Below are positions 1 to 30,029 of a stretch of DNA of 32,000 nucleotides, in pieces (within the stretch, counting starts at the first letter, position 1; each line of letters starts with the position of its first letter). Location of the stretch: contig NC_014148.1 of NCBI RefSeq assembly GCF_000092105.1, forward strand, positions 4,080,001 through 4,112,000, given 5' to 3'. The notes under the pieces are model-generated. The model saw only the letters and a list, made by a program, of their open reading frames with translations, searched no databases and was not told the DNA's origin. The position numbers were made by a program, and so were the translations under genes. The stretch comes from Planctopirus limnophila DSM 3776. GTDB lineage: Bacteria; Planctomycetota; Planctomycetia; Planctomycetales; Planctomycetaceae.

Positions 1-347
1 GAGGACATTAAGTCTGATTTGCATGCTGATGACTTTTTAATAAGTGGGGAAAGTCGATTCTGGCTGCCAATTCAACGAAGCCCACAGGGGCCGGGATTCA
101 ATCGATCATGCCGCAGTTTGACGAACTGACTTGCAGTACAAACTGTAATTGTACGCAACAACAGGATGGGTTACGCCAGAAATCGGGGAAATCTGCAACA
201 GCTTGGCCTGTGGAACAATTTCGACGAGTGATTTGGCAGGAGTCGTGTCCAGCGACAGGCCGATGCCTGCGTTCGCATCCAAGGCGACACGACATGCCTG
301 TTGAAGATGATTGCTCAAGATGAGGTCGGTGCTGGGACGGAAAAACC

Positions 348-378
348 GCCTCTTGAGAGTGGTGAAGTCTCAAGAGGC
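348..378 (-). terminator. Orphan stem-loop with T-run on the minus strand (intrinsic-terminator-like)
   Basis: Perfect 11-bp stem gcctcttgaga (348-358) / tctcaagaggc (368-378) with a 9-nt loop. Read on the minus strand, the hairpin is followed by GGTTTTTCC (complement of 339-347). No convincing CDS lies upstream of it on that strand. Confidence 0.3.
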
Positions 379-545
379 CTCGCTATATTTATTGGCACAC
401 ATCATTCTTTTCACCAATCCAGCAGAAGACGAGTGTTTAATCTGCGACGAGGACGTGGTGGGGAGAAGTATACAAATCGATTAAAAATTAAGGCTTAAGT
501 TTATTCTCCTCTTAACCTAATTCTTGTTTGAAGCACGGTGCGGCG

Positions 546-1472
546 ATGGTTGGTGATTCCCATGCCTGGAAAGAAAAAGAGTGGGAGCGGTATGCAAACG
601 AGCTTGTCTCGATAGATCACGGTTTGCGTGGAGGATCGTACCAGAGAATTCCGGACCGAAATGGTGACTGCGGATTGGAAGGCGTCGCGGATAGCGGCGA
701 CGGATACCAGTCATACGCGGATCAAGGCACCGCAGATGCCGACGAGAGAATTCAAAAACAGAAGAACAAGATCTACATAGATCTCAAGAAGCTGGAGACC
801 TACAAAGACTTTTGGACCGCTTACTTCGAGGATCGGAAGCTCACACGCTGGACGTTGCTAGTTCCCAAGTTTGAAGACAAGGACGTTTTGAAATACGCGA
901 AGAAGCGAGCGAAGGAAACCCGGAAGCTCAACCTGCCATTTATCGACGACAATTTCGACGTGTATGTGAAGTCGATCGAGGATTTTCCTGCTGCGACATT
1001 GATTGTCCGTGATCCTCGTTTGCCAAGGGGCGACGGAAAGCCGGTCTCTGCCAACAAGGTCATCGAATTCAAAATGCAGGAACCCCACTTTGTACAGATG
1101 ATTGATAAAAAACTGAAGAAAGCGATGCCTCACGCAACCGATACAGAGCGGGAGGCTTATCGGGAAAAGCTTCTCAACTGGCACCTTCGCTCTGATAATT
1201 ACCAGAAGGGCCTCGAACGCCTGTATCCTCCGCAGTGGGAAGACTTGCAGGAGCTGATATCAACGACAGGGGAATCAATTGAGTCGGAAGGACCTTTGGA
1301 CTCCCGAATGCCGGGAACGAGATTGAATGAGACTCGTAAGGAATTCGCAAAAACGCTTGAACAAGAAATGCCATTTATCTTTCAAGCAGATCGTGACATT
1401 GTCTCTTGGGGAACCATCGCACTCTGGTTAGGGATTTGCCCCTTGGATTTTCCGGAGAACGGAAATGACTGA
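546..1472 (+). CDS. Candidate effector subunit (LmuA-like position) of a three-gene Lamassu/ABC-3C-like cassette; hypothetical protein with a tentative Mrr/PD-(D/E)xK-like N-terminal motif
   Basis: ORF 528-1472 opens with TTG; the first in-frame ATG is at 546. Its stop overlaps the next gene's start (ATGACTGA, 1465-1472). The N-terminus has GDCGLEGV-x6-GYQSY (663-719), which resembles the GDgGiDg...QxK core of Mrr-type nucleases but has Tyr in place of Lys. The remaining ~230 aa are K/E-rich and helical-looking, with no motif I recognise. Confidence 0.65.
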   Translation: MVGDSHAWKEKEWERYANELVSIDHGLRGGSYQRIPDRNGDCGLEGVADSGDGYQSYADQGTADADERIQKQKNKIYIDLKKLETYKDFWTAYFEDRKLTRWTLLVPKFEDKDVLKYAKKRAKETRKLNLPFIDDNFDVYVKSIEDFPAATLIVRDPRLPRGDGKPVSANKVIEFKMQEPHFVQMIDKKLKKAMPHATDTEREAYREKLLNWHLRSDNYQKGLERLYPPQWEDLQELISTTGESIESEGPLDSRMPGTRLNETRKEFAKTLEQEMPFIFQADRDIVSWGTIALWLGICPLDFPENGND

Positions 1473-1983
1473 ACTTACTCTGGAAAACGCACTTGATGTA
1501 CCCTTCACGTTTTTCCGTCGGCCGACGCCCATGCCGTGCGATGTGCGACCCGTGTGGCGGATGCACGTCCTCGTTCTGCTCCTGAATCAATGCCGTGGCG
1601 CGAAGGCTGGTTTTGAGCAAATTCACGTACTCAATTGGGCGATCCGATCACCAGAAACGCGAAGGGCCTTCCTGCAATTCATCCAAGGCAAGCGGGCACC
1701 GAACGATATCATTGTTCGATACGATCCGAGCCTCAATCGAGCAGTGCGTTTCGCATTCGCTGAAGGTCTTGTTGTCCATCACGAGACGGAGCCGAGCCTA
1801 ATCGAAGACGAAGATGAAAAACGCGCTCCTGCATACCGCGTCATCTTGACAGAAAAAGGCCACAAGCTCGTCGCTGAAATCAAGAAGATGGATGACTGCT
1901 TTACCACTGAAAAGCAGTTTTTGCAGGAAATCGGAGCAAAGATAAGCCAGAAGCAAGTCAAATCGCTTTTCACCTGGAGTTGA
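1465..1983 (+). CDS. Small middle component (LmuC / ABC-3C MC-like position), possible winged helix-turn-helix protein
   Basis: 172-aa ORF with an ATG start overlapping the upstream stop by 8 nt and GGAGAA 6 nt upstream of the ATG. Its stop lies 1 nt before the ATPase ATG. The C-terminal segment YRVILTEKGHKLVAEI resembles the wing/recognition region of wHTH proteins. Function is assigned from position only. Confidence 0.6.
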   Translation: MTELTLENALDVPFTFFRRPTPMPCDVRPVWRMHVLVLLLNQCRGAKAGFEQIHVLNWAIRSPETRRAFLQFIQGKRAPNDIIVRYDPSLNRAVRFAFAEGLVVHHETEPSLIEDEDEKRAPAYRVILTEKGHKLVAEIKKMDDCFTTEKQFLQEIGAKISQKQVKSLFTWS

Positions 1984-1984
1984 T

Positions 1985-4024
1985 ATGGGCCTGCGAATCA
2001 GACGACTCCTAATGGCTGTGACGACTGCAAAGGGCAGGTTCGGCGCGACTATTCCCTTTGAAGATGGCCTGAATGTTCTTTGGGCTCCCAATACAAGCGG
2101 CAAATCAACAGCGATGATGTCGATCCTTTACGCTCTCGGTCTTGAGGGCATGCTTGGCCCCAGCCATCAGCCCCCACTGCCTGACGCGATGCGAACGCAT
2201 GTCATGACCGGTACCAGCGAAATTCCGGTCGTGGAGTCGTTTGTCCGCATGGAGATAGAGAACAGCAAAGGCGAACGCATTACGGTTCAGCGTCAGGTCG
2301 AGTCGAGCAACCCCAAAGATTCCCGACAGCTTGTTCGTGTGCTGCTTGGCCCCTACATGACCAAGCCAGACGGTCAGTATGAGCGTCGCGACTTTTACGT
2401 TCGGACCGGACGTGCTGCTACGGACCCATCGGGATTTCACAGATTCCTGGCTGAGTTCATCGGATACATACTTCCGCAAATTCCTGCTGCGGACAATGAA
2501 ACTGTCCCGCTGTACCTCGAATGTCTCTTTCCCTTTTTCTTCGTCGATCAAATGACTGGCTGGCGGGACATCAAGGCGAGAATGCCGACGTATCTCCGCA
2601 TCATGGAGATGGGGAAGCGGAGTGCGGAATACGTGCTCAGTTTGGACATCTTGCGGCGGGCAATCGACAAGCAAGAGAATGAGCGAAAGCAGGCACAGTT
2701 GAAGGAAAAATGGACAACGACTGCCAGCAAAGCTAAAGCCGTTACCGCAGCCAGTCATGTTATAGTTCGTGGAATTCCCGAAGATCCTACAGCCACATGG
2801 CCTCCGACGCCTCCGCTTGAATTGCTCATCACCGATGGAACTAATTGGAAGTCTGTTCGGGATAGCATCAAGTCACTGCAAACGCGATTGAAGGAGATCG
2901 ACGAGAAGGAAATTCCCCGTGCGGAACAGGTGGCTCAGTCGGCGATCGAAGACCTTCAAAGAACCGAAGAAGAACTGTCTCGTCTCACCAGCCGCCTAGA
3001 AGCGCTGACGCGGGACTTGATGGCTGAACGCGCTCACCGGGATTCGGTGTTCAAAAGACTCCAAGCACTCGCGGAGGATTACCGGAAGTATCAAGACGCG
3101 AAGAAGGTGGAGGATCGCGGTGGAAACATCCCGATTGAACTTGCCTCCGGAAACTGTCCGACCTGTCATCAACCAATCAAAGATGTTCTTCTGGAACAAG
3201 AGCATGCCAGTCCGCCAATGACCCTCGAAGAGAATATCCTCTTCATCAGAGATCAAATTGCGACATTCCGGGACATGTACGAAGATACGAAGGGGGTCGT
3301 CGAGGCCAAGGAACGGCAACTCGATGCAATTAGGCAGAAAATCTACGACACGAATTCGACAATGCGATCACTGAAGCACACGCTTCATTCCGGTGGTGAA
3401 GTTCCATCTGCCGCTGCGATTCAGGAGCGTCTGCTTCTCGAACAGTCGGCAATCTCGCTTCAAAACGTGTCCGACAACTTCGCGGAATTTGACACCGTCT
3501 TCGAGAATCTCGCCAACGAGTGGGCAGAGATTCAATCTCGATTGAAGTCATTGGCGAAAATCGGCCTCACGGACATGGATGAAATGAAAATCGCATACCT
3601 TCAAACGATGTTTGTCCAACAGCTCGAAGAGTATCAGTTCAGCAGTTTTCCGATTGATCAAATGAGCATCAGCAGAGAGAGCTATCGACCTGCGCGCAAC
3701 GATTTTGATGTGGGTCTCACTTCCGCGAGCGACACAATCCGAATTATCTGGGCCTATCTCATCGGAATGCTCGAAGCGGACCGGAAGTTTCAGACAAACC
3801 ACCTTGGAATGCTGGTGTTTGACGAGCCTCGCCAGCAAGGCACGAAGAAACTCAGTTTCGATGCCTTGCTAAAGCGTGCGTCGAAATGTGCAGAGTCAAA
3901 GCAGCAAGTGATCGTTGCGACAAGTGAAGACAAAGAAACACTCGATAGTATTATCAGAGACATTCCGTGCCACTATCTACAGTACCCTGGAAAGATACTG
4001 ACGCCGATTCCCAAAAAGACATGA
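1985..4024 (+). CDS. Rad50/SMC-like ABC ATPase with a long coiled-coil insert and central CxxC hook (LmuB-like)
   Basis: 679-aa ORF with GGAG 5 nt upstream of the ATG. Walker A APNTSGKST (2084-2110). The ~330-aa insert is rich in heptad-like E/K/R/L/Q stretches. CPTC at 3155-3166 sits at the midpoint of the insert. Degenerate signature GLTSASD. Walker B/D-loop LVFDEPRQQ (3812-3838). Distal ATSED. Confidence 0.8.
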   Translation: MGLRIRRLLMAVTTAKGRFGATIPFEDGLNVLWAPNTSGKSTAMMSILYALGLEGMLGPSHQPPLPDAMRTHVMTGTSEIPVVESFVRMEIENSKGERITVQRQVESSNPKDSRQLVRVLLGPYMTKPDGQYERRDFYVRTGRAATDPSGFHRFLAEFIGYILPQIPAADNETVPLYLECLFPFFFVDQMTGWRDIKARMPTYLRIMEMGKRSAEYVLSLDILRRAIDKQENERKQAQLKEKWTTTASKAKAVTAASHVIVRGIPEDPTATWPPTPPLELLITDGTNWKSVRDSIKSLQTRLKEIDEKEIPRAEQVAQSAIEDLQRTEEELSRLTSRLEALTRDLMAERAHRDSVFKRLQALAEDYRKYQDAKKVEDRGGNIPIELASGNCPTCHQPIKDVLLEQEHASPPMTLEENILFIRDQIATFRDMYEDTKGVVEAKERQLDAIRQKIYDTNSTMRSLKHTLHSGGEVPSAAAIQERLLLEQSAISLQNVSDNFAEFDTVFENLANEWAEIQSRLKSLAKIGLTDMDEMKIAYLQTMFVQQLEEYQFSSFPIDQMSISRESYRPARNDFDVGLTSASDTIRIIWAYLIGMLEADRKFQTNHLGMLVFDEPRQQGTKKLSFDALLKRASKCAESKQQVIVATSEDKETLDSIIRDIPCHYLQYPGKILTPIPKKT

Positions 4025-4410
4025 CAAATACTCTGCAACGTATCCATTGCACATGGCCTGTCTTTTAGCAGGTCTGTTGCGATTGCAGCGGGTTGAAAGC
4101 GCGATGGCGTTGGGCAAGTCTGATGGATTATGGCATTCGATCTCAACTCACGTGAAGAACACGTCTCAACATGGGCGCTCCTGACTTTAGAGCCAAAACA
4201 ATCTACCTCTTGGTCTATCGCAGGGTGGCCCCGGTTGAAATTCTGATTTCTACCGGTGTGGTTAAGCCTCAAGAGGTTTTGTTTCCCGTCAACAATTGTT
4301 TCGCACCGTGCGGTTTTAGGGCATGAAACTTAGCGGACGATCTGCTTAGGAACGTGATCTCCTTTTTCCGTGTCTGCAGACAAACAACCACACTGGCCGT
4401 CATAAAAGTA

Positions 4411-5205
4411 TTAATACCGGGCGAGGTCGCCGGCGGCTTGGAGGCCGAGGTTGGCGACGACTTCCTGCGCGCCAGTTACCATGAATTTCAGCTCGCTGCC
4501 CACAGCAATGAATTGCCAGCCGGCATCAATCCGCTTCTGAGCCTGCTCGACTGATTGAGTGTGAATGCCCACAGGCACGCCATGTTTTTGACCAGCCGCC
4601 AGTATCCGGCCGAGCATGACCTCAAACTCTTCTTGAGTCGCTTCGGTACCATCGGGAGCACGCATCTGCGCTGCGAGATCATTGGGGCCGACGAAAATCG
4701 CATCAACTCCCGGCAGCGAATAGATCGCGTCAGCATTAGCCACTCCTTCGGGGGATTCTGTCTGCAGGACGACGAGAATCTCATCATTGGCATGCTGGTA
4801 GTAATCGCCAGCACTGGTGCCGAAGTTCAGCGCATGCATCGAACCACCCACCGAACGATTTCCGGCAGGCGGATACTTGGCGGCAGCAATCGCAATTTTG
4901 GCTTCTTCCACAGTGTTGATCATGGGGACGACAATGCCATGTGCCCCCGCATCGAGCACCCGTTTGATGTAATCGTGATCGCCACGGGGAACTCGGGCCA
5001 GGCAAACGCCACCGGCATCGGCAATCGCCCCAAACAAAAGCCCGGCACTATCCCACCCGATGGGCGAATGTTCCAGATCGACCGTCAACCAGTGAAAGCC
5101 ACTGCGGGCCATTAAACGAGCGGCGAAGACGTTCCCTAAAGAAAGCCATGTGCCAATTTGTGGCTCGCCATTGGCCAAAGCACGTTTGACAGGGTTCTTC
5201 CACAT
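4411..5205 (-). CDS. HpcH/HpaI family aldolase (2-keto-3-deoxy-acid aldolase type)
   Basis: [11 protein letters not shown]...[13 protein letters not shown]...[13 protein letters not shown]...[13 protein letters not shown]...VVLQTES...[12 protein letters not shown] is colinear with E. coli HpaI as I remember it. The ORF runs to 5232; I prefer the ATG at 5205 (MWKNP). Confidence 0.85.
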
Positions 5206-20327: not shown

Positions 20328-22322
20328 ATGCGGACGATGGTTGTCGGGAGCGTTCTATTATTGGTGATTGCCATCGCGATTGAATCGGTCTGGCCACAGA
20401 CGGGTGATCGCGCTCCGGAAAATGGCCCACCCCAAAATGGCCCCCGAGAAAATGGCCCAGGGGGCGGCTTTCCACCCTTCGGCCCTCCGGGCGGATTCCC
20501 TGGCTTTGGCGGACCACCCGGCTTCGGCGGCCCGCCCGGAGGTGGACAGGAACGCAAGCTGCTCTCGAAATTCGATGCTGACAAAGACGGCAAGCTGAAT
20601 CTCGCAGAGCGACAACTGGCTCGAAAAGAATCCGCTCAGGGAAGTGCTGGCTTCGGCGGTCCCAGAGGGCCTCGCGGCGGTATGCCTGGCATGGGAGCCA
20701 ATCGTACGCCACAAGCAGGGAAGAAAATCCTGCCCGAGAATGTGACGTCAGCCGGTGATACTGATCTGTACGATCCGTCGATCGTCCGGACAATATTTCT
20801 GAACTTTGAAGGCAAAGACTGGGAAACAGAACTCTCGGACTTTCACAACACGGATGTCGAAGTTCCCGCCATGATGCAGGTTGATGGTAAAGACTACCCC
20901 GACGTCGGCGTCAGCTTCCGCGGCATGTCATCCTACGGTATGGTGCCAGCCGGCTTTAAGCGGTCATTCAATGTTTCCATCGATGCCTTTAACGACCAGC
21001 AAAAGCTCGGCGGCTACAAAACGCTGAATTTACTTAACTGCAATGGCGACACTTCATTTTTAAGAGGTTTTGTCTACTCTCAGATCGCCACGGAAATGAT
21101 CCCCGTCCCTCGCGTGAACTTTGTTCGTGTCGTTGTAAATCACGAAGACTGGGGTGTCTTTGCAAACGTCGAACAATTCAACAAAGATTTTATCAAAAGA
21201 CACTTTGAGAACAGCAATGGCTATCGGTGGAAGGTTCCAGGAAGTCCTATGGGTCGCGGTGGGCTGGAGTATTTAGGGGATGATACCAACGCCTACAAGC
21301 GAATTTACGAGATCAAAAGTAAAGATACTCCTGAGGCCTGGGAGCGATTGATTTCTTTATGCCGCATTCTGAATGAGACACCTGCGGAGCAACTGGTCGA
21401 AAAGCTGGAGCCAGTCCTCGATATTGATGAGACCCTGACGTTTCTGGCGCTGGATGTCGCGCTCTGCAATAGTGATGGCTACTGGACTCGCGCGAGTGAT
21501 TACAGTCTCTACTGCACACCCGAAGGGAAATTTACACTGGTTCCGCACGACTTCAATGAGATCTTTCAATCGGGTGGCCCTGGCGGCCCACCAGGTGGCG
21601 GACCGCCGGGTGGATTTGGGCCCCCATCATTTGGTTTTCCTCCATTTGGTCCACCACCCGAAGGCCAACCCCCATTCGGACCGCCGGGTGGTGCACCCAA
21701 TGGATTCGGGCCACCTCCCAATGGGAATAGCACTCCTCCTCAGGGACGAGTTGCCGGTAATCCCAATGGCCCTCCTCAAGGGCCGGGTGGCGGGCAAAAT
21801 CCGCGGGGTGGCCCAAGACGAGGCCCCGGTGGTGGTGGGCCTGGTGGCGGTGGTCCCGGTGGCGGTGGGCCAGGTCATGGTGGGCCGACACTCGATCCTC
21901 TGGTTGGGCTCAACGATTCGACAAAGCCACTGCGCAGTAAACTCCTTGCTGTTCCAGAACTCAAGGCTCGCTATCTGAAGTATGTCGGACAGATTGCCGA
22001 TCAGTACCTGGCAGCCGAATTCCTCAAACCTCGGATGCAGCAGGAGTTTGAACTGATTTCACCACTGGTGGCTCAGGATCAGAAGAAGCTCTTCACCACA
22101 GCCGACTTTGTGCGCGAGTCGAAGTTTATTGAGATTCAGAACTCCTCAGAAAATGCTCGCTCGACGCTGTGGGATCAGATTCAGAAACGACGGGAGTTTC
22201 TGATGAAACACGCGGAAGTCCGAGCCGCCCTTGGCAAGCAGAACACCGATGGACGAACATCGGCGATCAAGAATCAGCGATCCTCCAACCGACAACCGGC
22301 TCCCTTGTCGTCAGCCCGTTAA
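20328..22322 (+). CDS. CotH kinase family protein with signal peptide, an EF-hand-like loop and two Pro/Gly-rich tracts
   Basis: CotH-like blocks VGVSFRGMSS, FNVSIDAF, YKTLNLLNCNGDTSFLRGFVYSQI, RVVVNHEDWGVFANVEQFNKDFIKRHF, NSDGYWTRASDYSLYC, LVPHDFNE. DADKDGKLNLAE at 20574-20609. P/G tracts at 20424-20546 and 21573-21887. Confidence 0.85.
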   Translation: MRTMVVGSVLLLVIAIAIESVWPQTGDRAPENGPPQNGPRENGPGGGFPPFGPPGGFPGFGGPPGFGGPPGGGQERKLLSKFDADKDGKLNLAERQLARKESAQGSAGFGGPRGPRGGMPGMGANRTPQAGKKILPENVTSAGDTDLYDPSIVRTIFLNFEGKDWETELSDFHNTDVEVPAMMQVDGKDYPDVGVSFRGMSSYGMVPAGFKRSFNVSIDAFNDQQKLGGYKTLNLLNCNGDTSFLRGFVYSQIATEMIPVPRVNFVRVVVNHEDWGVFANVEQFNKDFIKRHFENSNGYRWKVPGSPMGRGGLEYLGDDTNAYKRIYEIKSKDTPEAWERLISLCRILNETPAEQLVEKLEPVLDIDETLTFLALDVALCNSDGYWTRASDYSLYCTPEGKFTLVPHDFNEIFQSGGPGGPPGGGPPGGFGPPSFGFPPFGPPPEGQPPFGPPGGAPNGFGPPPNGNSTPPQGRVAGNPNGPPQGPGGGQNPRGGPRRGPGGGGPGGGGPGGGGPGHGGPTLDPLVGLNDSTKPLRSKLLAVPELKARYLKYVGQIADQYLAAEFLKPRMQQEFELISPLVAQDQKKLFTTADFVRESKFIEIQNSSENARSTLWDQIQKRREFLMKHAEVRAALGKQNTDGRTSAIKNQRSSNRQPAPLSSAR

Positions 22323-22431
22323 AAGCTCGTGGCAATCTTTGGGTATGGAGTGTGATTGGTTTCCGCGATCACTTCTTGAACCGTTTGCTTATGTCGCACC
22401 TTGCACGGATTTCAATAAACAACTATTCGGC

Positions 22432-22529
22432 GGGTGGCTGGGGTTGAGTCTTCGAACCCCCAGCGATTTTCGGCATGAACTGGGGGTTCGCGAAGACGCT
22501 CAACCCCAGCCACCCCATACCAAGGAGCG
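22432..22529 (-). repeat. ~98-bp palindromic intergenic repeat, family A, copy 2 (inverted relative to copy 1)
   Basis: gggtggctggggttgagtcttcgaacccccag-cgattttcggcatgaa-ctgggggttcgcgaagacgctcaaccccagccaccccataccaaggagcg. Its reverse complement aligns to 12499-12597. It lies in the gap between the CotH and VTC genes. Confidence 0.9.
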
Positions 22530-22581
22530 CAGTTTATAGTTGAAATCCGTATTTCAACCGATTGATAGCAAAGGATGCCTT

Positions 22582-23424
22582 ATGTATCTTGCGACAAACT
22601 CAGGTCATGATACGGACTGCGATGCAGTCTCGTTCCCTGTATCGTCAATTGGAGAGAGATCGCTGCCATCGTCTGATCGGCAGCCGAAGCTCCCGTTTTC
22701 GTTTCGTGAATTGACTCAAAAGCTGTTAACCTCTCCCGTCTCAGAAACGAAGTATCTCATTTCAAGATCGGTCGCTGATCTTGTTTCTGGATGGGCACAA
22801 GTTTATATGCAGCCCGACCAGCATGCTGATCCTGCATTAGGAGATGGCTACTGGGTGCGTACTTTATATCTCGATACGCCGGGGGCTGACATTTATCACC
22901 GCCGAGGGGTTGGTCGCAGCCGCAAATTCCGTATTCGAGGATATGGGAGCTCTCCTGAACTCTGGTTGGAAATGAAGTGGAAGCGGAAAGAAAAAGTCCG
23001 CAAGCGTCGTACCGTGATTCATCAGGATCAGCTGCCGTTGATCATGGCCAATTCATCTCAGGAGTATGATTGGTTTTCGAGTCGGATTGATCGCTACCAG
23101 TTACAACCCGCCTGCCAGATCACTTATCGGCGACAGGCTTATCTATGCCGGACATCGCACGGGGTCTATCGACTCACGCTTGATCGCGAGGCATTTTCAC
23201 AGCCGCATGATGGCTGGAAGGCTCCTGTCGAAGCTGGAAACTGTCGGATTCTGAATGCGGAGAACGCCATACTGGAATTAAAGTATCAGGGCGACTTCCC
23301 ACTCTTCTTCAGATCGCTCGTGGAATTAATTCCTCAAGTTCCCGGCTCGTATTCTAAGTATCGCCGGGCGATTTCCACTTTGATGGATCAATCCATGGGG
23401 GATTCTGCATGCCCGACTGGTTGA
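22582..23424 (+). CDS. VTC domain (CYTH-like, polyphosphate-polymerase-type) protein
   Basis: ETKYLIS...VRTLYLDTPGADIYHRR...RKFRIRGYG...LWLEMKWKRKEKVRKRR matches the bacterial VTC-domain pattern (E-K-Y/F ... YFDT ... K-R-R-Y ... E-K-K). The ORF opens with TTG at 22540; I prefer the ATG at 22582. Confidence 0.75.
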   Translation: MYLATNSGHDTDCDAVSFPVSSIGERSLPSSDRQPKLPFSFRELTQKLLTSPVSETKYLISRSVADLVSGWAQVYMQPDQHADPALGDGYWVRTLYLDTPGADIYHRRGVGRSRKFRIRGYGSSPELWLEMKWKRKEKVRKRRTVIHQDQLPLIMANSSQEYDWFSSRIDRYQLQPACQITYRRQAYLCRTSHGVYRLTLDREAFSQPHDGWKAPVEAGNCRILNAENAILELKYQGDFPLFFRSLVELIPQVPGSYSKYRRAISTLMDQSMGDSACPTG

Positions 23425-24098
23425 CCGCTTTTTCGCTACCGTCGGCACCTCCTCAGGACTGGAAGACTATCGTAGCCTCGATGGTGCTATCGGTTCTCTT
23501 AGGGATGACGATTGGCCAGATCCACCGCTGGACACGTCCCCTTCACCCCGGGAGTGCCTCATTCCACGCGACTTTGGTCTTGATGACGATTCTGATTACG
23601 CTGGTCACTCAAGTCATCGGCGATAACGTCGCACGGGCCTTCAGTCTCGTGGGAGCGCTGTCGATCGTTCGCTTTCGCACTGTCGTCCGCGATACAAAAG
23701 ATACAGCGTTCGTCATCTTCGCCGTCGTGATTGGTATGTGTGCCGGTGCGGAACGCGGCTGGCTGGCGATCGGAGGGACCATCCTCGTTGGTCTGGTCGC
23801 GGCCATTTATCGAGACCGTCCCTATAACCCTTCGACTTCACTGATCCGTTACCGGTTAATCCTGCGGATGGGGCTGGCACAAGAAGTGGAATCACAGGTG
23901 CATGCCCTGCTTCAGCAGGTTGCCCGGAGCTATGACCTCGAAAGTCTCAGTACCGTTCGTCAGGGGAGTGCGATGGAAACGACCTACTCGCTGCAATTGA
24001 ACCGCGCGATCTCGCCGCGCGAGTTGCATACGCAGTTGAGCCGTATCGAAGGGATCCAGAGTGTCGAACTGACGGCATCCATCGACGAGGATCGTTGA
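23409..24098 (+). CDS. DUF4956 domain membrane protein
   Basis: Overlaps the VTC gene by 16 nt. TM segments plus FSLVGALSIVRFRTVVRDTKDTAFVIFAVVIGMCAG, the conserved DUF4956 core as I recall it. Confidence 0.75.
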   Translation: MPDWLTAFSLPSAPPQDWKTIVASMVLSVLLGMTIGQIHRWTRPLHPGSASFHATLVLMTILITLVTQVIGDNVARAFSLVGALSIVRFRTVVRDTKDTAFVIFAVVIGMCAGAERGWLAIGGTILVGLVAAIYRDRPYNPSTSLIRYRLILRMGLAQEVESQVHALLQQVARSYDLESLSTVRQGSAMETTYSLQLNRAISPRELHTQLSRIEGIQSVELTASIDEDR

Positions 24099-27776: not shown

Positions 27777-28078
27777 TCCAGATGCATGCCATTGACGTGG
27801 ACTGGTTCGGTACGTCCCCATTCTTTGAAATAATGCCCTAACCGAACAAATTTACGGAATGTGGAATGCTCCCAGTCCCACGGCCTAGCGGCGAGTCCAT
27901 GTTTCACCGGATTGTAGTGGATATAGTCAAAATGGGCTTCCAGATCCTGTTCATCGCGGATTAGGTGCTCCCAAAATCGTCGTTGCCAGATACCCTTGCT
28001 TCCACGCCGCAGCCGATTACTTGACGTTGCCGATTCTTCGCTGATTTTCCTTCGGCTGAAACTTTTGAGTTGAGCTAA
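27773..28078 (-). pseudogene. 5'-truncated REP-associated tyrosine transposase (RAYT, IS200/IS605 Y1 family) remnant
   Basis: My manual minus-strand translation gives ...SSNRLRRGSKGIWQRRFWEHLIRDEQDLEAHFDYIHYNPVKHGLAARPWDWEHSTFRKFVRLGHYFKEWGRTEPVHVNGMHLE*. This matches the C-terminal half of RAYTs (compare E. coli YafM IWQPRFWEHAIR...DYIYINPVKHG). There is no start codon. The frame is closed by TAA at 28079-28081. The HUH-containing N-terminal half is absent. Confidence 0.8.
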
Positions 28079-28136
28079 TTAGAAGCACAACAGATCTCAA
28101 GAGACGCCATTTCGAAGACCGTGACAACTTAGAGGA

Positions 28137-28166
28137 TTGATCGACTCGCAGATTCTTCTTTATAGT
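28137..28166 (+). promoter_or_regulatory. Possible sigma70-like promoter for the J-domain gene
   Basis: TTGATC (28137-28142), an 18-nt spacer, then TATAGT (28161-28166), about 40 bp upstream of the ATG at 28208. Promoter consensus in this lineage is uncertain. Confidence 0.2.
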
Positions 28167-28207
28167 AGCATTTAGACAAGTGATCATCAAAAGTCGGAAG
28201 TGCTATA

Positions 28208-29311
28208 ATGAATCTCGATGAAGCATGCCAAATTCTAGGAGTAACGAAGGGTTGCAAGCTCGACTCGGTTAAAAAGCGTCATCGGTTACTTGTTCAGGTT
28301 TGGCATCCGGATCGTTTCTCAGAAAACTCATCGACTCGGAAAGCGGCTGAAGCAGAGTTGAAGGAAGTGAACGCAGCAATTGAGTTAATTGAACGTACGC
28401 GTCCTGAGGAGTGGAACTCAGAGTCGTCCTCCGCCAACCAATCTGGTCGCCGTGAAGCTCAAAAAGCTGCAGTGTGGGCAGATGCCCAACGGGAGGTGAA
28501 GGCTGCTGAGGTGGAAGCGGAGAAGCAAAAGGCGGCTGCTTGGGCGGAGAGAGAAAAGCAACGGCAAAAGGAATGGCTTAATGAGTCTCGAAAAGCTGCG
28601 TTATACACAAAAGTTAGGTGTCGCTGGCTGACTCCTCTGTTCGGTCGATTTGCAATTGCCAGTGCATCAATTCTGGCATTTACCATAGTTGTGTGGCTAT
28701 CTCTGCATGAGTACCGAAAGTTGCTTCAGCTTGAAATTGATCGAGAAATCAAAGCAGGAATCATCACTGAATCAAGATTACAAGCCGCATTGGCCATCGA
28801 GAAGGTGTCTGAATCCGCACTACGAAAAGAGGAATTGTCCACTGCACGCATGCGAGAACTTATGATTCAAGATGAAATCGAACTGTCTTCTATTGTAAAT
28901 GATATTCGCAGATCGCTTCTAGAGGCAGACCTAGGCGATGCCAACCAATTGGAGCGGAACGCCATAACCATAAAACAGAACTGGCAAGAACGGTATTCAC
29001 TGTCTATTCGTAAGTCACTCATCTTGCAATTAGCGAAAGCATCGCCAGCAACGAGGGTGTTGGAGGCGGAAAACAGCAGAAAAAGTGTTGTTGAGCGGCG
29101 TAAAGAAGTTCGGGAATCACTGAAGCTGGCTGCTGCAAATGAATATCGCATTCTCAAAGACGAGATCGACAACAGTGATGCCTCTCTAGAAGAAAAATCA
29201 GTACGAAGCATCTATCTTGATCATATCTACAGTGCAGCAATCATCGGAATTGACCGGCTTTCGCTTGTGCAGCTTGAAGAAGTGAAGAGCGAGATGGCCA
29301 GCGGGTCATAG
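28208..29311 (+). CDS. Membrane-anchored J-domain (DnaJ-like) protein with a long helical C-terminal region
   Basis: N-terminal J domain: ACQILGV...SVKKRHRLLVQVWHPDRF...AEAELKEVNAAIELI, with HPD at 28304-28312. A charged A/E/K-rich linker follows, then TM FAIASASILAFTIVVWLSL and ~200 aa of helical, coiled-coil-like sequence. GC is visibly lower than in surrounding genes. Confidence 0.8.
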   Translation: MNLDEACQILGVTKGCKLDSVKKRHRLLVQVWHPDRFSENSSTRKAAEAELKEVNAAIELIERTRPEEWNSESSSANQSGRREAQKAAVWADAQREVKAAEVEAEKQKAAAWAEREKQRQKEWLNESRKAALYTKVRCRWLTPLFGRFAIASASILAFTIVVWLSLHEYRKLLQLEIDREIKAGIITESRLQAALAIEKVSESALRKEELSTARMRELMIQDEIELSSIVNDIRRSLLEADLGDANQLERNAITIKQNWQERYSLSIRKSLILQLAKASPATRVLEAENSRKSVVERRKEVRESLKLAAANEYRILKDEIDNSDASLEEKSVRSIYLDHIYSAAIIGIDRLSLVQLEEVKSEMASGS

Positions 29312-29527
29312 ATCGTTGATAGGCTCAGATGCATTGTTTTGAAGAACGATAAACTGCTCCTCGATAGTCTCAAAAGTCTGGCGATCTACCCATTTGTGGC
29401 GTTCTGTCGCAAAGTCGCCACTGCCGTTCTCAAGCTGCTGAAGAAAGCGACTCCTCCCCACGACGCCCATCCGCTGCTGCATCGCGTTCATATCTTTCGG
29501 AGAAGTCTTTTCAAGCCTTCGTGACAT
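29306..29527 (-). CDS. Small hypothetical protein (73 aa)
   Basis: ORF 29306-29530 (TTG, then ATG at 29527). It is convergent with the J-domain gene and overlaps its 3' end by 6 nt. No motif recognised. Confidence 0.35.
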   Translation of the reverse strand: MSRRLEKTSPKDMNAMQQRMGVVGRSRFLQQLENGSGDFATERHKWVDRQTFETIEEQFIVLQNNASEPINDL

Positions 29528-29545
29528 CAAGAATTTCAGTTAATT

Positions 29546-29591
29546 AGAGAAAATGCGGCGACAGATTCCAAGCTGGAAGCCTGCCGCCGCA
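29546..29591 (-). terminator. Intrinsic-terminator-like hairpin on the minus strand
   Basis: Stem tgcggcgacag (29554-29564) / ctgccgccgca (29581-29591) is 11 bp with 1 mismatch and a 16-nt loop. On the minus strand it is followed by TTTTCTCT (complement of 29546-29553). It lies about 110 bp downstream of the 44-aa ORF. Confidence 0.35.
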
Positions 29592-29700
29592 ATCTATCTT
29601 ACCACAATAAAATCGTGATTCGTGGTGATGCGTCTATCTACCACGGCTTGCCACGCATTAAAAGTTAAAGTGTGGACAGTTCAACCCTTAAGACAGAGCA

Positions 29701-29835
29701 TTACTTCTTTTTTGCACTACCCTTTTGAGAAAGTGCCGATCCTGCAGCCGACTTTGAATCCTTTCCAGTTCGACCATCTTTCAGAACCCGAGAGGCGGCT
29801 GATGCAGCATTGTCGCTAGTCTTCTTATCAGTCAT
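29701..29835 (-). CDS. Unlisted 44-aa Lys/Ser/Ala-rich small protein
   Basis: My manual translation gives MTDKKTSDNAASAASRVLKDGRTGKDSKSAAGSALSQKGSAKKK*. GGAG lies 7 nt upstream of the ATG (cggagatttggaATG on the minus strand). It is below the 60-aa cutoff of the ORF track. Confidence 0.4.
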   Translation of the reverse strand: MTDKKTSDNAASAASRVLKDGRTGKDSKSAAGSALSQKGSAKKK

Positions 29836-30029
29836 TCCAAATCTCCGATAAGGCAACAGCTCAATTATGGCTGTCTAGAACAGAGGAACCAAGCAGCGAC
29901 ATTCAATTGAATAGTCATAATCTGCAGGCCCATCACCTATATAACACCATTGGTGTGACAAACGTTCGCCGAAAATATAGAGAAACCTATGTGGAACCTC
30001 AGTATTAATTCGCCGTGAGATTCAAATAC

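What the first reader, a model, noticed from the sequence alone, without database searches (positions are those of the whole stretch)
528..4024. Translationally coupled three-gene cassette: nuclease-like effector, small wHTH-like middle protein and Rad50/SMC-like ABC ATPase (Lamassu/ABC-3C-like candidate defence system)
Three same-strand ORFs have overlapping or abutting stop and start codons (ATGACTGA at 1465-1472; TGAtATG at 1981-1987), so they form one operon. About 0.4-0.5 kb of apparently non-coding DNA separates them from neighbours on both sides.

- Gene 3 is an ABC-type ATPase split by a ~330-aa coiled-coil insert. It has Walker A APNTSGKST, degenerate signature TSASD and Walker B LVFDEPRQQ.
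- Gene 2 is a 172-aa protein with a wing-like YRVILTEKGHKLV segment.
- Gene 1 has a nuclease-like N-terminal motif plus a long helical tail.

A variable effector, then a small middle component, then a coiled-coil ABC ATPase, in this order, is the published architecture of Lamassu (LmuA/LmuC/LmuB; DdmABC), also called ABC-3C. FDEPRQQ resembles the DQPSQ-type Walker B that I recall for LmuB/DUF3732. None of the three proteins looks to me like a close copy of a characterised member, and I cannot place the effector. It may therefore be a new subtype, or a distinct system built on the same logic.
Basis: partly seen in the sequence, partly recalled or inferred. Interest (0 to 1): 0.85.

Follow-up and report, generated by a model that had tools for sequence, protein, structure and literature searches.

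The report
Divergent three-gene Lamassu defence cassette
This is a three-gene Lamassu anti-phage/anti-plasmid operon (LmuA, LmuC, LmuB) in Planctopirus limnophila; it belongs to a Lamassu subtype that defence-gene libraries already model, and the only open point is the uncharacterised, probably nuclease, killing domain of LmuA.

Summary
Three + strand genes (546/528-1472, 1465-1983, 1985-4024) have the stated stop/start junctions and the stated ATPase motifs.

The Lamassu reading is also confirmed:
- Gene 3 matches PADLOC LmuB model PDLC03863 over its full length (E 2.6e-107).
- Gene 2 matches LmuC model PDLC03871 (E 8e-32).
- Gene 1 hits no PADLOC, Pfam or NCBIfam model itself. It is nevertheless a clear member (E 8e-77 against an HMM of distant relatives only) of a family of about 300-aa proteins with 822 cluster representatives. 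Distant members of that family hit PADLOC LmuA model PDLC03852 and sit in the same A-C-B triads.

The cassette is therefore a divergent, planctomycete-branch member of a known short (type II) Lamassu subtype. It is not a new subtype or a new system.

The triad is conserved wherever the sequence allows, is under strong purifying selection (dN/dS 0.06-0.075), and moves as a module with unrelated flanks. It sits next to Hma, PD-T7-3 and AbiE genes, on plasmids, and 4-10 kb from cas genes in its own genome.

The LmuA head has a restriction-endonuclease-like topology and an Mrr-like GDxG[IL][ED]G...Q motif. An aromatic residue replaces the canonical lysine. Its activity is inferred, not shown.

The parts
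546..1472 (+). lmuA: effector subunit, 308 aa from ATG 546 (an in-frame TTG at 528 would give 314 aa). It is a divergent member of the LmuA family modelled by PADLOC PDLC03852.
   Evidence: - ORF. It is 100% identical to Plim_3152.
- It has no PADLOC, Pfam or NCBIfam hit itself.
- It scores E 8e-77 against an HMM built only from distant relatives.
- Those relatives hit PDLC03852 at 1e-17 to 1e-31.
- The family has 822 cluster representatives.
- dN/dS is 0.057.
546..1025 (+). LmuA N-terminal effector head (residues 1-160). Its topology (alpha-beta-beta-beta-alpha-alpha-beta-alpha-beta) looks restriction-endonuclease-like. Candidate active-site residues are D41 (666-668), E45 (678-680), Q55 (708-710), K75 (768-770) and D79 (780-782). 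Y57 (714-716) occupies the canonical lysine position.
   Evidence: - AF2 model of the head alone: pLDDT 87, pTM 0.83.
- Conservation across 59 representatives.
- hhalign against an Mrr catalytic-domain profile: P 5e-4 over alpha1, beta1 and the GDxG[IL][ED]G loop; the CTD control gave P 0.41.
- Weak fold matches to PD-(D/E)XK, REase and RPB5-N proteins.
- Nuclease activity is inferred, not shown.
1050..1436 (+). LmuA C-terminal helical domain (residues 169-297). By analogy it is the domain that docks onto LmuB2-LmuC and later oligomerises. K189, W294 and C298 are invariant, and the C-terminal motif is W-L-x-x-C-P-L-[DN]-F.
   Evidence: - AF2 model of the full-length protein: pLDDT 88, with six helices over 169-297.
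- Full-length Foldseek ranks solved LmuA chains first (9hr5_C prob 0.98; 9nxx; 9uxl_C), whereas the head alone does not match them.
- Conservation.
- The role of the CTD is taken from bioRxiv 10.1101/2025.03.14.643221 and PMC12663957.
1465..1983 (+). lmuC: small middle component, 172 aa. Its start overlaps the lmuA stop by 8 nt.
   Evidence: - PADLOC LmuC PDLC03871: E 8e-32, covering model positions 2-149 of 156.
- Conserved in all related triads.
- dN/dS 0.060.
- The MarR wHTH resemblance is seen only at E 0.07-0.4.
1985..4024 (+). lmuB: SMC/Rad50-like ABC ATPase, 679 aa, short type. Features: Walker A 2084-2110 (K40); CPTC zinc hook 3155-3166; signature-like TSASD 3719-3733; Walker B LVFDEPRQQ 3812-3838 (D613, E614).
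   Evidence: - PADLOC LmuB PDLC03863: E 2.6e-107, residues 1-657; about 20 further LmuB models also match.
- Pfam AAA_23 and SMC_N match the P-loop; NCBIfam Rad50/SMC coiled-coil matches cover 238-535.
- Motifs are invariant in 7 orthologues.
- dN/dS 0.075.
24..545 (.). Divergent intergenic region upstream of lmuA. It presumably holds the promoter, which was not identified. It contains a perfect 11-bp hairpin at 348-378.
   Evidence: - The upstream 1077-aa gene is on the - strand and starts at about window position 24.
- Hairpin: -24.8 kcal/mol, z -3.0.
- The sigma-70 and terminator scans gave no more sites than chance.
- Homology with the closest relative L001 begins only at 537, so this region is not part of the shared module.
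359..377 (+). Left copy of a 19-nt direct repeat that brackets the cassette (GTGGTGAAGTCTCAAGAGG). It forms the loop plus 3' arm of the hairpin.
   Evidence: Its meaning is untested; it could be a footprint of insertion.
4258..4276 (+). Right copy of the 19-nt direct repeat (GTGGTTAAGCCTCAAGAGG, 17 of 19 identical to the left copy). It is followed by TTTTGTTT.
   Evidence: There are only two copies in the 32-kb window. No empty site was found.

Best explanation
The cassette is a short-type (type II, LmuA-LmuC-LmuB) Lamassu defence system. It is a divergent planctomycete member of the subtype that PADLOC models as LmuA PDLC03852 / LmuC PDLC03871 / LmuB PDLC03863.

Proposed mechanism. Every step is inferred by homology from the Vibrio, Salmonella and Bacillus systems; nothing was shown for this subtype.
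1. Two LmuB protomers dimerise, probably through the CPTC zinc hook, and fold back on themselves.
2. Together with one LmuC, they sequester the helical C-terminal domain of one LmuA. This keeps the effector monomeric and inactive.
3. The LmuB heads and LmuC bind DNA ends or replication intermediates of a phage or plasmid. LmuB here has an intact Walker A (K40) and a canonical Walker B (D613-E614), so ATP binding and hydrolysis would gate the response.
4. LmuA is released and oligomerises through its C-terminal domain.
5. Its N-terminal heads then pair into an active enzyme that damages DNA indiscriminately. This aborts the infection or eliminates the plasmid-bearing cell.

The head is most likely a restriction-endonuclease-fold (Mrr-like) nuclease. 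It would use D41, E45 and Q55, plus K75 and D79 from the following helix, because the canonical lysine position holds Tyr or Phe.
For: Identity of the parts:
- LmuB E 2.6e-107 and LmuC E 8e-32.
- LmuA by transitive homology.
- Solved LmuA chains are the top full-length fold matches.

Short-type features listed in PMC12663957:
- Length 679 aa, nearer the ~600-aa average given for short LmuB than the ~800 aa given for long LmuB.
- Walker B hhhhD[Q/S/T/E], here LVFDE.
- One CxxC zinc hook.

The three genes behave as a unit:
- Same order and tight adjacency in 9 of 9 genome loci with enough sequence, 2 distant metagenome loci and 2 plasmids.
- Homology with the closest relative covers only 537-4002; the flanks are unrelated.

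The genes are functional:
- dN/dS 0.057, 0.060 and 0.075.
- Catalytic motifs are invariant.

Defence and mobile context:
- HmaB and HmaC lie directly upstream in L004 and L005, and PD-T7-3 lies downstream in L003.
- Type I R-M, DRT, Shedu-like, HEPN and integrase genes occur among the flanking ORFs.
- AbiEii, a PLD-like protein and a recombinase flank the triad on a Ti plasmid.
- 28 plasmid records carry this LmuB type.
- cas3, Cas_GSU0053 and Cas_GSU0054 genes lie 4-10 kb upstream in the same genome.

Nuclease head:
- Alpha-beta-beta-beta-alpha-beta core.
- Residues conserved in all 59 family representatives: D41, acidic 45, Q55, K75, D79.
- Match to Mrr's GDGGIDG region in register, P 5e-4.
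- The weak fold neighbours include REase-fold proteins.

The mechanism is taken from PMC12663957, bioRxiv 10.1101/2025.03.14.643221 and bioRxiv 10.1101/2025.06.23.660979.
Against: - No experiment exists for this subtype as far as I could find.
- The solved systems carry a Cap4 head and CTD7 or CTD12 tails, and they show no sequence-level match to these proteins.
- The full-length fold match to LmuA is borderline (E 1.1e-3, TM 0.28).
- The head alone has no significant structural neighbour: best PDB E 0.03, best viral E 7e-3 with TM up to 0.45.
- The canonical (D/E/Q)xK lysine is replaced by Tyr or Phe, so the catalytic chemistry is uncertain.
- The Mrr profile match covers only 36 columns, at 31% probability.
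- The immediate downstream neighbours in this genome are housekeeping genes.
- No promoter or terminator was identified.
Confidence: 0.82

Rival explanations
1. It is a Lamassu system, but the LmuA head is not a nuclease. It could be a different enzyme or a non-catalytic module, so the killing step works on another target.
For: - No Pfam, NCBIfam or PDB sequence match for the head in gene 1 or its relatives.
- No significant structural neighbour for the head alone.
- The canonical lysine of the (D/E/Q)xK motif is Tyr or Phe in all 59 representatives.
- Published Lamassu effectors include non-nucleases such as Sir2, protease, lipase and FMO, and one clade was described as having seemingly lost the effector domain.
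Against: - The secondary-structure order is that of the REase core.
- The acidic loop GDxG[IL][ED]G and the following Q align in register with Mrr's metal-binding motif (P 5e-4).
- The weak fold hits include REase-fold proteins: a PD-(D/E)XK nuclease, a REase-domain protein, EcoO109I, XisH and RPB5-N.
- An invariant K75/D79/K82 on the next helix could supply the missing lysine.
Confidence: 0.13
2. It is a housekeeping Rad50/SbcC-like DNA-repair module rather than a defence system.
For: - LmuB has Rad50/SMC-like P-loop and coiled-coil matches.
- Downstream neighbours in this genome are metabolic genes.
- Lamassu is thought to derive from SbcCD (PMC12663957).
Against: - The best matches by 80 orders of magnitude are LmuB and LmuC defence models.
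- Genes 1 and 2 have no Pfam or NCBIfam match, so neither is recognisable as an Mre11/SbcD-type phosphoesterase partner.
- The cassette has unrelated flanks in its closest relative.
- It occurs on plasmids and next to Hma, PD-T7-3, AbiE and R-M genes.
- It has a patchy distribution, and a decayed remnant lies beside an IS fragment in Nocardioides.
Confidence: 0.03
3. It is a decaying or silent relic: the genes are recognisable but no longer form a working system in this strain.
For: - The LmuA of this branch has drifted beyond the PADLOC LmuA model.
- No promoter was detected.
- LmuB appears frameshifted in three related MAG loci, L002, L003 and L008.
Against: - All three ORFs are intact with preserved overlapping junctions.
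- dN/dS is 0.06-0.075 against L001, with dS about 0.8-1.0.
- Every catalytic and structural motif is retained.
- Two of the three loci with an apparent frameshift carry MFD-series MAG names. If these are long-read assemblies (my assumption, not checked), the frameshifts may be sequencing errors.
Confidence: 0.02

Closest known systems
Short / type II Lamassu (LmuACB; ABC-3C), specifically the subtype modelled in PADLOC-DB v2.0.0 by LmuA PDLC03852, LmuC PDLC03871 and LmuB PDLC03863
   Same: - Gene order A-C-B with overlapping junctions.
- LmuB is about 660-680 aa with Walker A, a CxxC zinc hook, TSASD and Walker B DEPxQQ.
- LmuC is about 160-170 aa.
- LmuA is about 300 aa, with the GDxG[IL][ED]G...YQxY...K-x3-D head and the W-L-x-x-C-P-L-[DN]-F tail.
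   Different: - The window's LmuA, and that of L010, has diverged so far that the PADLOC LmuA model no longer detects it. Automated callers may therefore report the system as incomplete.
- I could not map these model numbers to the published subtype names (Mrr, PDDEXK, 'hypothetical', SMEK and so on), because the library copy here gives no such labels.
Vibrio cholerae DdmABC and Salmonella enterica LmuACB (Cap4-type Lamassu, LmuA CTD7; PDB 9nxx, 9ny5, 9hr5, 9uxl)
   Same: - Three-component architecture.
- LmuA has the same two-domain plan, an N-terminal effector head plus a helical C-terminal domain.
- These solved LmuA chains are the top full-length fold matches.
- The Walker A lysine is also at position 40, as in the V. 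cholerae LmuB K40A mutant.
   Different: - The effector head is not Cap4/DUF4297: no Pfam family matches it.
- LmuA is about 80 aa shorter.
- There is no sequence-level similarity for any subunit.
- The V. cholerae LmuB has no zinc hook and a naturally deviant Walker B. Here the zinc hook is present and Walker B is a canonical DE.
Mrr-type restriction endonuclease catalytic domain (Pfam PF04471; E. coli EcoKMrr), also used as the head of Lamassu-Mrr
   Same: - Helix alpha1, strand beta1 and the acidic loop align in register: GDGGIDG in Mrr against GDCGLEG here (hhalign P 5e-4).
- A Gln sits on the next strand, VQAK in Mrr against YQSY here.
   Different: - No Pfam Mrr_cat hit for gene 1 or for 10 relatives.
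- The catalytic Lys of QxK is Tyr or Phe.
- The beta2-beta3 hairpin is shorter.
- Only 36 columns align with any confidence.
SbcCD / Rad50-Mre11 DNA-end processing complexes
   Same: Zinc-hook coiled-coil ABC ATPase that recognises DNA ends. It is the proposed evolutionary source of Lamassu (PMC12663957).
   Different: - There is no recognisable Mre11/SbcD partner: genes 1 and 2 have no Pfam or NCBIfam match.
- The coiled coil is shorter.
- The partners are a sequestered toxic effector plus LmuC.
- The context is mobile and defence-linked.

Membership tests
Lamassu (short / type II) | LmuB: SMC/Rad50-like ABC ATPase split by a coiled coil, with Walker A GxxxxGK[ST] | tested here: met
   - PADLOC LmuB PDLC03863: E 2.6e-107, full length.
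- APNTSGKST with K40; Rad50/SMC coiled-coil matches over 238-535.
- Invariant in orthologues.
Lamassu (short / type II) | Short-type LmuB: about 600 aa, Walker B hhhhD[Q/S/T/E], and 0-2 CxxC zinc hooks (PMC12663957) | tested here: met
   679 aa; LVFDE (D613, E614); one CPTC at 391-394, invariant as CPxC.
Lamassu (short / type II) | LmuC middle component encoded between lmuA and lmuB | tested here: met
   PADLOC LmuC PDLC03871, E 8e-32. Position and overlapping junctions.
Lamassu (short / type II) | LmuA: N-terminal effector domain plus a C-terminal domain that docks on LmuB/LmuC | tested here: met
   - There is no direct PADLOC hit.
- Gene 1 scores E 8e-77 against an HMM of distant relatives, and those relatives hit LmuA PDLC03852 at 1e-17 to 1e-31.
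- The AF2 model has two domains.
- The top fold matches are solved LmuA chains, but the match is borderline.
- Docking itself was not tested.
Lamassu (short / type II) | The three genes co-occur as a unit in other genomes | tested here: met
   9 of 9 informative genome loci, 2 distant metagenome loci and 2 plasmids.
Lamassu (short / type II) | Association with defence islands or mobile elements | tested here: met
   - Hma, PD-T7-3, R-M, DRT, AbiE, integrase and plasmid contexts.
- cas genes 4-10 kb upstream in the same genome.
- The immediate downstream genes here are housekeeping genes.
Lamassu (short / type II) | Protection against phage or plasmids that depends on the LmuB ATPase, LmuC and the LmuA active site | not testable with these tools
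   This needs cloning and challenge experiments.
Lamassu-Mrr effector class / Mrr_cat (PF04471) | Match to the Mrr catalytic-domain profile | tested here: inconclusive
   No Pfam hit at E <= 1 for gene 1 or for 10 relatives. hhalign against an Mrr profile built here gives P 5e-4 and probability 31% over 36 columns only.
Lamassu-Mrr effector class / Mrr_cat (PF04471) | Catalytic D...(D/E)...QxK with the lysine on strand beta3 | tested here: not met
   D41, E/D45 and Q55 are conserved in all 59 representatives, but the lysine position holds Tyr (55 of 59) or Phe (4 of 59).
Cap4-type LmuA (DUF4297) as in DdmA | Cap4/DUF4297 nuclease domain at the N-terminus | tested here: not met
   - No Pfam family matches gene 1 or its relatives.
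- No PADLOC LmuA model other than PDLC03852 is hit.
- The head alone does not retrieve the solved Cap4-type LmuA chains.
SMEK-type or HNH-type LmuA | SMEK or HNH domain profile match | tested here: not met
   No such family in the Pfam or NCBIfam scans of gene 1 and 59 relatives. That these libraries hold a SMEK model rests on my memory, not on a check.
   Not among the 16 Pfam families matching gene 3 at E <= 1.
SbcCD / Rad50-Mre11 | Adjacent Mre11/SbcD phosphoesterase nuclease | tested here: not met
   Genes 1 and 2 have no Pfam or NCBIfam match, so no phosphoesterase partner is recognisable. The neighbouring genes are unrelated.
   MarR-family chains match only at E 0.07 (single sequence) and 0.37-0.39 (profile), over the A..A..L[VI]...YRV.LT.KG segment.

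The most novel reading that the evidence does not exclude
The roughly 160-residue head of this LmuA family may be an effector class missing from the published Lamassu catalogue (Cap4, Mrr, protease, Sir2, FMO, HNH, SMEK, lipase). It would be a restriction-endonuclease-fold enzyme whose catalytic lysine has moved from strand beta3 (now Tyr or Phe) to the following helix (invariant K75, with D79). It might correspond to the clade reported as having 'seemingly lost the effector domain'. If so, a large family (822 clusters at 50% identity, all named members 'hypothetical protein') would be an uncharacterised killing module, possibly with different substrate or activation rules.
Probability: 0.3. 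Interest if true: 0.5.

Novelty: new member of a known kind. Interest (0 to 1): 0.3.

Why it matters
The finding adds a correctly identified Lamassu system to a planctomycete model organism. It also shows a practical blind spot: the PADLOC v2.0.0 LmuA model misses the effector of this branch, so automated surveys could report the system as incomplete or overlook it.

More broadly, this LmuA class is widespread and has no name. It has 822 cluster representatives, occurs on Agrobacterium, Sinorhizobium, Anabaena and Clostridium plasmids, and has no Pfam or NCBIfam model. Its head has an unusual active-site layout.

Characterising one member would test whether the sequester-release-oligomerise mechanism, worked out for Cap4-type Lamassu, extends to a different head and tail. 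None of this is surprising to a specialist. It is a useful annotation, not a discovery of a new kind of system.

Tried and rejected
1. Sequence searches of all three proteins, and of family profiles, against PDB chains gave nothing significant.
2. A fold search of the LmuA head alone gave no hit at E <= 1e-3 against either the PDB or the viral library.
3. Pfam and NCBIfam scans of up to 59 family members gave no domain. All named members are 'hypothetical protein'.
4. The sigma-70 promoter and intrinsic-terminator scan over 1-4500 found no more sites than in shuffles. Rfam found no match in the window and no tRNA was found.
5. Insertion-site hypothesis for the 19-nt flanking repeat:
   - A metagenome scan for a reconstituted hairpin plus T-run gave 5 hits, none homologous to the window flanks.
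   - Contigs encoding the flanking aldolase, or LmuA itself, only reproduce the window's own sequence.
   - The hypothesis remains untested.
6. Extending the Mrr alignment with permissive or global settings gave low-confidence columns, which I do not use.
7. Mapping the PADLOC model numbers to published subtype names failed:
   - The library copy gives no labels.
   - The PNAS survey has no supplements held.
   - No paper links P. limnophila to Lamassu.
   - The ABC-3C classification paper (Krishnan et al. 2020) is not held.
   - The preprint text adds nothing.
8. I rejected the SbcCD/repair reading and the relic reading; see the rival explanations.

Full report
**Origin of the window.** Gene 1 is 100% identical to Plim_3152 of Planctopirus limnophila DSM 3776. 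Independent assemblies reproduce window 1-4247 exactly.

**Observation.**
- The three + strand ORFs are 528-1472 (TTG; the database copy of this protein and the start conserved in L001 both use ATG 546, giving 308 aa), 1465-1983 (172 aa) and 1985-4024 (679 aa).
- The junctions are exactly as described: ATGACTGA at 1465-1472 (8-nt overlap) and TGA-T-ATG at 1981-1987.
- Gene 3 has Walker A APNTSGKST (K40), TSASD (579-583) and Walker B LVFDEPRQQ (D613, E614). It also has a CPTC zinc hook at 391-394, in the middle of the coiled coil. All are invariant in seven orthologues.
- The non-coding flanks are real. About 520 nt on the left reach a divergently transcribed 1077-aa gene. On the right, 386 nt reach a convergent HpcH-aldolase gene.

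**What the genes are.**
- PADLOC calls gene 3 LmuB (PDLC03863, E 2.6e-107, residues 1-657), with about twenty further LmuB models behind it. It calls gene 2 LmuC (PDLC03871, E 8e-32).
- Pfam and NCBIfam see only generic P-loop and Rad50/SMC coiled-coil signals in gene 3, and nothing in genes 1 and 2.
- Gene 1 has no hit in PADLOC, Pfam, NCBIfam or PDB sequences.
- The word-indexed search found only 21 homologues of gene 1; those with a source name are planctomycetes. The exhaustive profile search found 822 cluster representatives (366 at E <= 1e-30), nearly all 300-310 aa.
- Ten of ten sampled distant members hit PADLOC LmuA model PDLC03852 nearly end to end (E 1e-21 to 1e-31). So do the window's intermediate relatives in L007 and L009 (35-36% identity).
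- An HMM built only from the distant members scores the window protein at E 8e-77.
- Two distant members sit in 300/162/660-680-aa triads whose partners hit the same LmuC and LmuB models.
- The cassette is therefore a divergent member of an already-modelled Lamassu subtype. Only the LmuA of this planctomycete branch (the window and L010) has drifted below the PADLOC model's reach.

**Type.** By the criteria of the 2025 survey (PMC12663957) this is a short Lamassu. LmuB is 679 aa, its Walker B is hhhhDE, it has one zinc hook, and LmuC is small. The gene order A-C-B is that of type II / ABC-3C systems.

**Structure of LmuA.**
- The AF2 model is confident (pLDDT 88). It shows an N-terminal alpha/beta domain (1 to about 160) and a six-helix C-terminal domain (169-297).
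- Full-length Foldseek ranks solved LmuA chains first: Salmonella 9hr5_C (prob 0.98, E 1.1e-3), 9nxx, and V. cholerae 9uxl_C. TM-scores are low (0.28).
- The head modelled alone (pLDDT 87, pTM 0.83) does not retrieve those chains and has no significant PDB neighbour. I infer that the match comes from the helical tail, the part that defines LmuA.
- The head's secondary-structure order is alpha-beta-beta-beta-alpha(-alpha)-beta-alpha-beta, which is the restriction-endonuclease core.
- Its weak neighbours include proteins annotated as nucleases, or that I know to have the restriction-endonuclease fold: EcoO109I, XisH, a phage PD-(D/E)XK nuclease, a REase-domain protein, and several RPB5 N-terminal domains. 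RPB5-N is classed in SCOP under the restriction-endonuclease-like fold (my own knowledge). Each hit is individually insignificant.
- Across 59 diverse representatives, D41, G43, Q55, K75 and D79 are invariant, position 45 is always acidic, K82 is 98% conserved, and position 57 is Tyr (55) or Phe (4).
- A profile-profile comparison with an E. coli Mrr catalytic-domain profile built here aligns helix alpha1, strand beta1 and GDxG[IL][ED]G with Mrr's GDGGIDG in register. P is 5e-4, against 0.41 for the tail as a control.
- By position, Q55-x-Y57 corresponds to Mrr's Q-x-K. The canonical lysine is therefore missing, and the invariant K75/D79 on the next helix are candidates to complete the site. 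This last step is inference; I could not inspect coordinates.

**Conservation, selection and mobility.**
- The triad is present in the same order and tightly adjacent in all nine related genome loci with enough sequence. These come from Planctomycetota, a Verrucomicrobiae MAG and a Phycisphaeraceae MAG.
- Against the closest relative (L001), dN/dS is 0.057, 0.060 and 0.075 for the three genes, with dS about 0.8-1.0.
- Nucleotide homology with L001 covers window 537-4002 only; the flanks are unrelated.
- In L004 and L005 an Hma system (HmaB, HmaC; E down to 1e-303) ends 20-30 nt before lmuA. L003 has PD-T7-3 just downstream. Other flanks hold type I R-M, DRT reverse transcriptases, a Shedu-like protein, HEPN, an integrase and plasmid genes.
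- The same LmuB type is on 28 plasmid records, 16 of them conjugative or mobilizable.
- On an Agrobacterium Ti plasmid the triad lies beside AbiEii/DUF6088, a PLD-like protein, a recombinase and repC. It is also on the conjugative Anabaena plasmid pANACY.02. All genes of the triad are annotated 'hypothetical protein'.
- In P. limnophila itself, cas3, Cas_GSU0053 and Cas_GSU0054 genes lie 4-10 kb upstream, beyond one large unrelated gene. The 28 kb downstream is housekeeping.

**Mechanism.** This is inferred by homology. None of it has been shown for this subtype.
- The cryo-EM and biochemical work on Cap4-type systems shows an LmuA1-LmuB2-LmuC1 complex (PMC12663957; bioRxiv 10.1101/2025.03.14.643221 and 10.1101/2025.06.23.660979).
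- In that complex, the folded LmuB dimer and LmuC sequester the LmuA C-terminal domain.
- DNA ends are sensed by the LmuB heads and LmuC, and ATP regulates the response.
- LmuA is then released, tetramerises through its C-terminal domain and cleaves DNA indiscriminately, giving abortive infection or plasmid elimination.
- The present cassette has every part needed for that scheme, with a different head and tail on LmuA and a canonical Walker B and a zinc hook on LmuB.
- I rate the Lamassu assignment near-certain, the sequester-release-oligomerise logic likely, and the nuclease chemistry of the head probable (about 0.6-0.7).

**Rivals.**
- A non-nuclease head cannot be excluded: there is no significant fold or family match, and the lysine is missing.
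- A housekeeping repair role is contradicted by the defence-model matches, the absence of a recognisable Mre11/SbcD partner, and the mobile, defence-linked contexts.
- A decaying relic is contradicted by intact ORFs, strong purifying selection and retained motifs.

**Verdict.** The suggestion of a new subtype or a distinct system is not. This is a new, divergent member of a known kind, of modest interest (0.3). The residual novelty lies in the unnamed, uncharacterised LmuA head family. I could not establish which published subtype label it carries.

Noticed in passing
window 348-378, 359-377 and 4258-4276: A 19-nt direct repeat (17 of 19 identical, only two copies in 32 kb) brackets the cassette. 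The left copy is the loop plus one arm of a perfect 11-bp hairpin (-24.8 kcal/mol). That hairpin is followed by a T-run on the minus strand, so it looks like a terminator for the leftward-transcribed aldolase gene. The right copy lacks the other arm and is followed by TTTTGTTT. This could be a footprint of the cassette's insertion at a terminator, or it could be chance.
   Followed up: partly
L012 1-5804 (same genome, 4-10 kb left of window position 1): A cas gene cluster (Cas3 DEAD helicase, an unnamed gene, Cas_GSU0053 and Cas_GSU0054) lies upstream of the Lamassu cassette. One 1077-aa DUF6288/HEAT/SASA gene separates them. Together they form a loose defence neighbourhood that the window itself does not show.
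   Followed up: partly
L004 34-5970 and L005 78-5981: In two different planctomycete MAGs, an Hma system (HmaB methylase, HmaC ATPase) ends 20-30 nt upstream of the lmuA homologue on the same strand. This raises the possibility of a recurrent Hma-Lamassu pairing.
   Followed up: partly
L011 5794-6213 (Nocardioides sp. J54): A fragment encodes only the LmuA head motif (GDYGIEG...YQCYADQ...KQKKK), with no lmuC or lmuB. It lies between an IS3-like OrfA remnant and the gap gene. It looks like a decayed remnant of this LmuA family in an actinobacterium.
   Followed up: partly
L002 7447-9487, L003 7439-9462, L008 7479-9444: The lmuB homologues in these three MAG loci are split between reading frames. 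They may be pseudogenes or assembly errors; this was not resolved.
   Followed up: no
window 4197-4247: Contigs from several independent sequencing runs of this strain end here from both sides: at 4247 and 4197 from the left, and at 4227 from the right in three runs. The breaks lie just before the right repeat copy. The cause is unknown; it could be a genomic repeat, a coverage drop or population heterogeneity.
   Followed up: partly
L020 1192-2019: In one distant triad, a 275-aa ORF with no PADLOC hit ends 3 nt before lmuA on the same strand. It may be a fourth gene in some members of the subtype.
   Followed up: no
window 28000-30000: G+C drops to 0.46-0.47, against about 0.53 elsewhere. The 367-aa ORF at 28208-29311 has only an N-terminal DnaJ domain. 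Nothing else was examined here.
   Followed up: no
window 20328-24098: Three adjacent + strand genes encode a CotH kinase-like protein, a VTC-domain protein and a DUF4956 protein. They are ordinary genes, unrelated to the finding.
   Followed up: no
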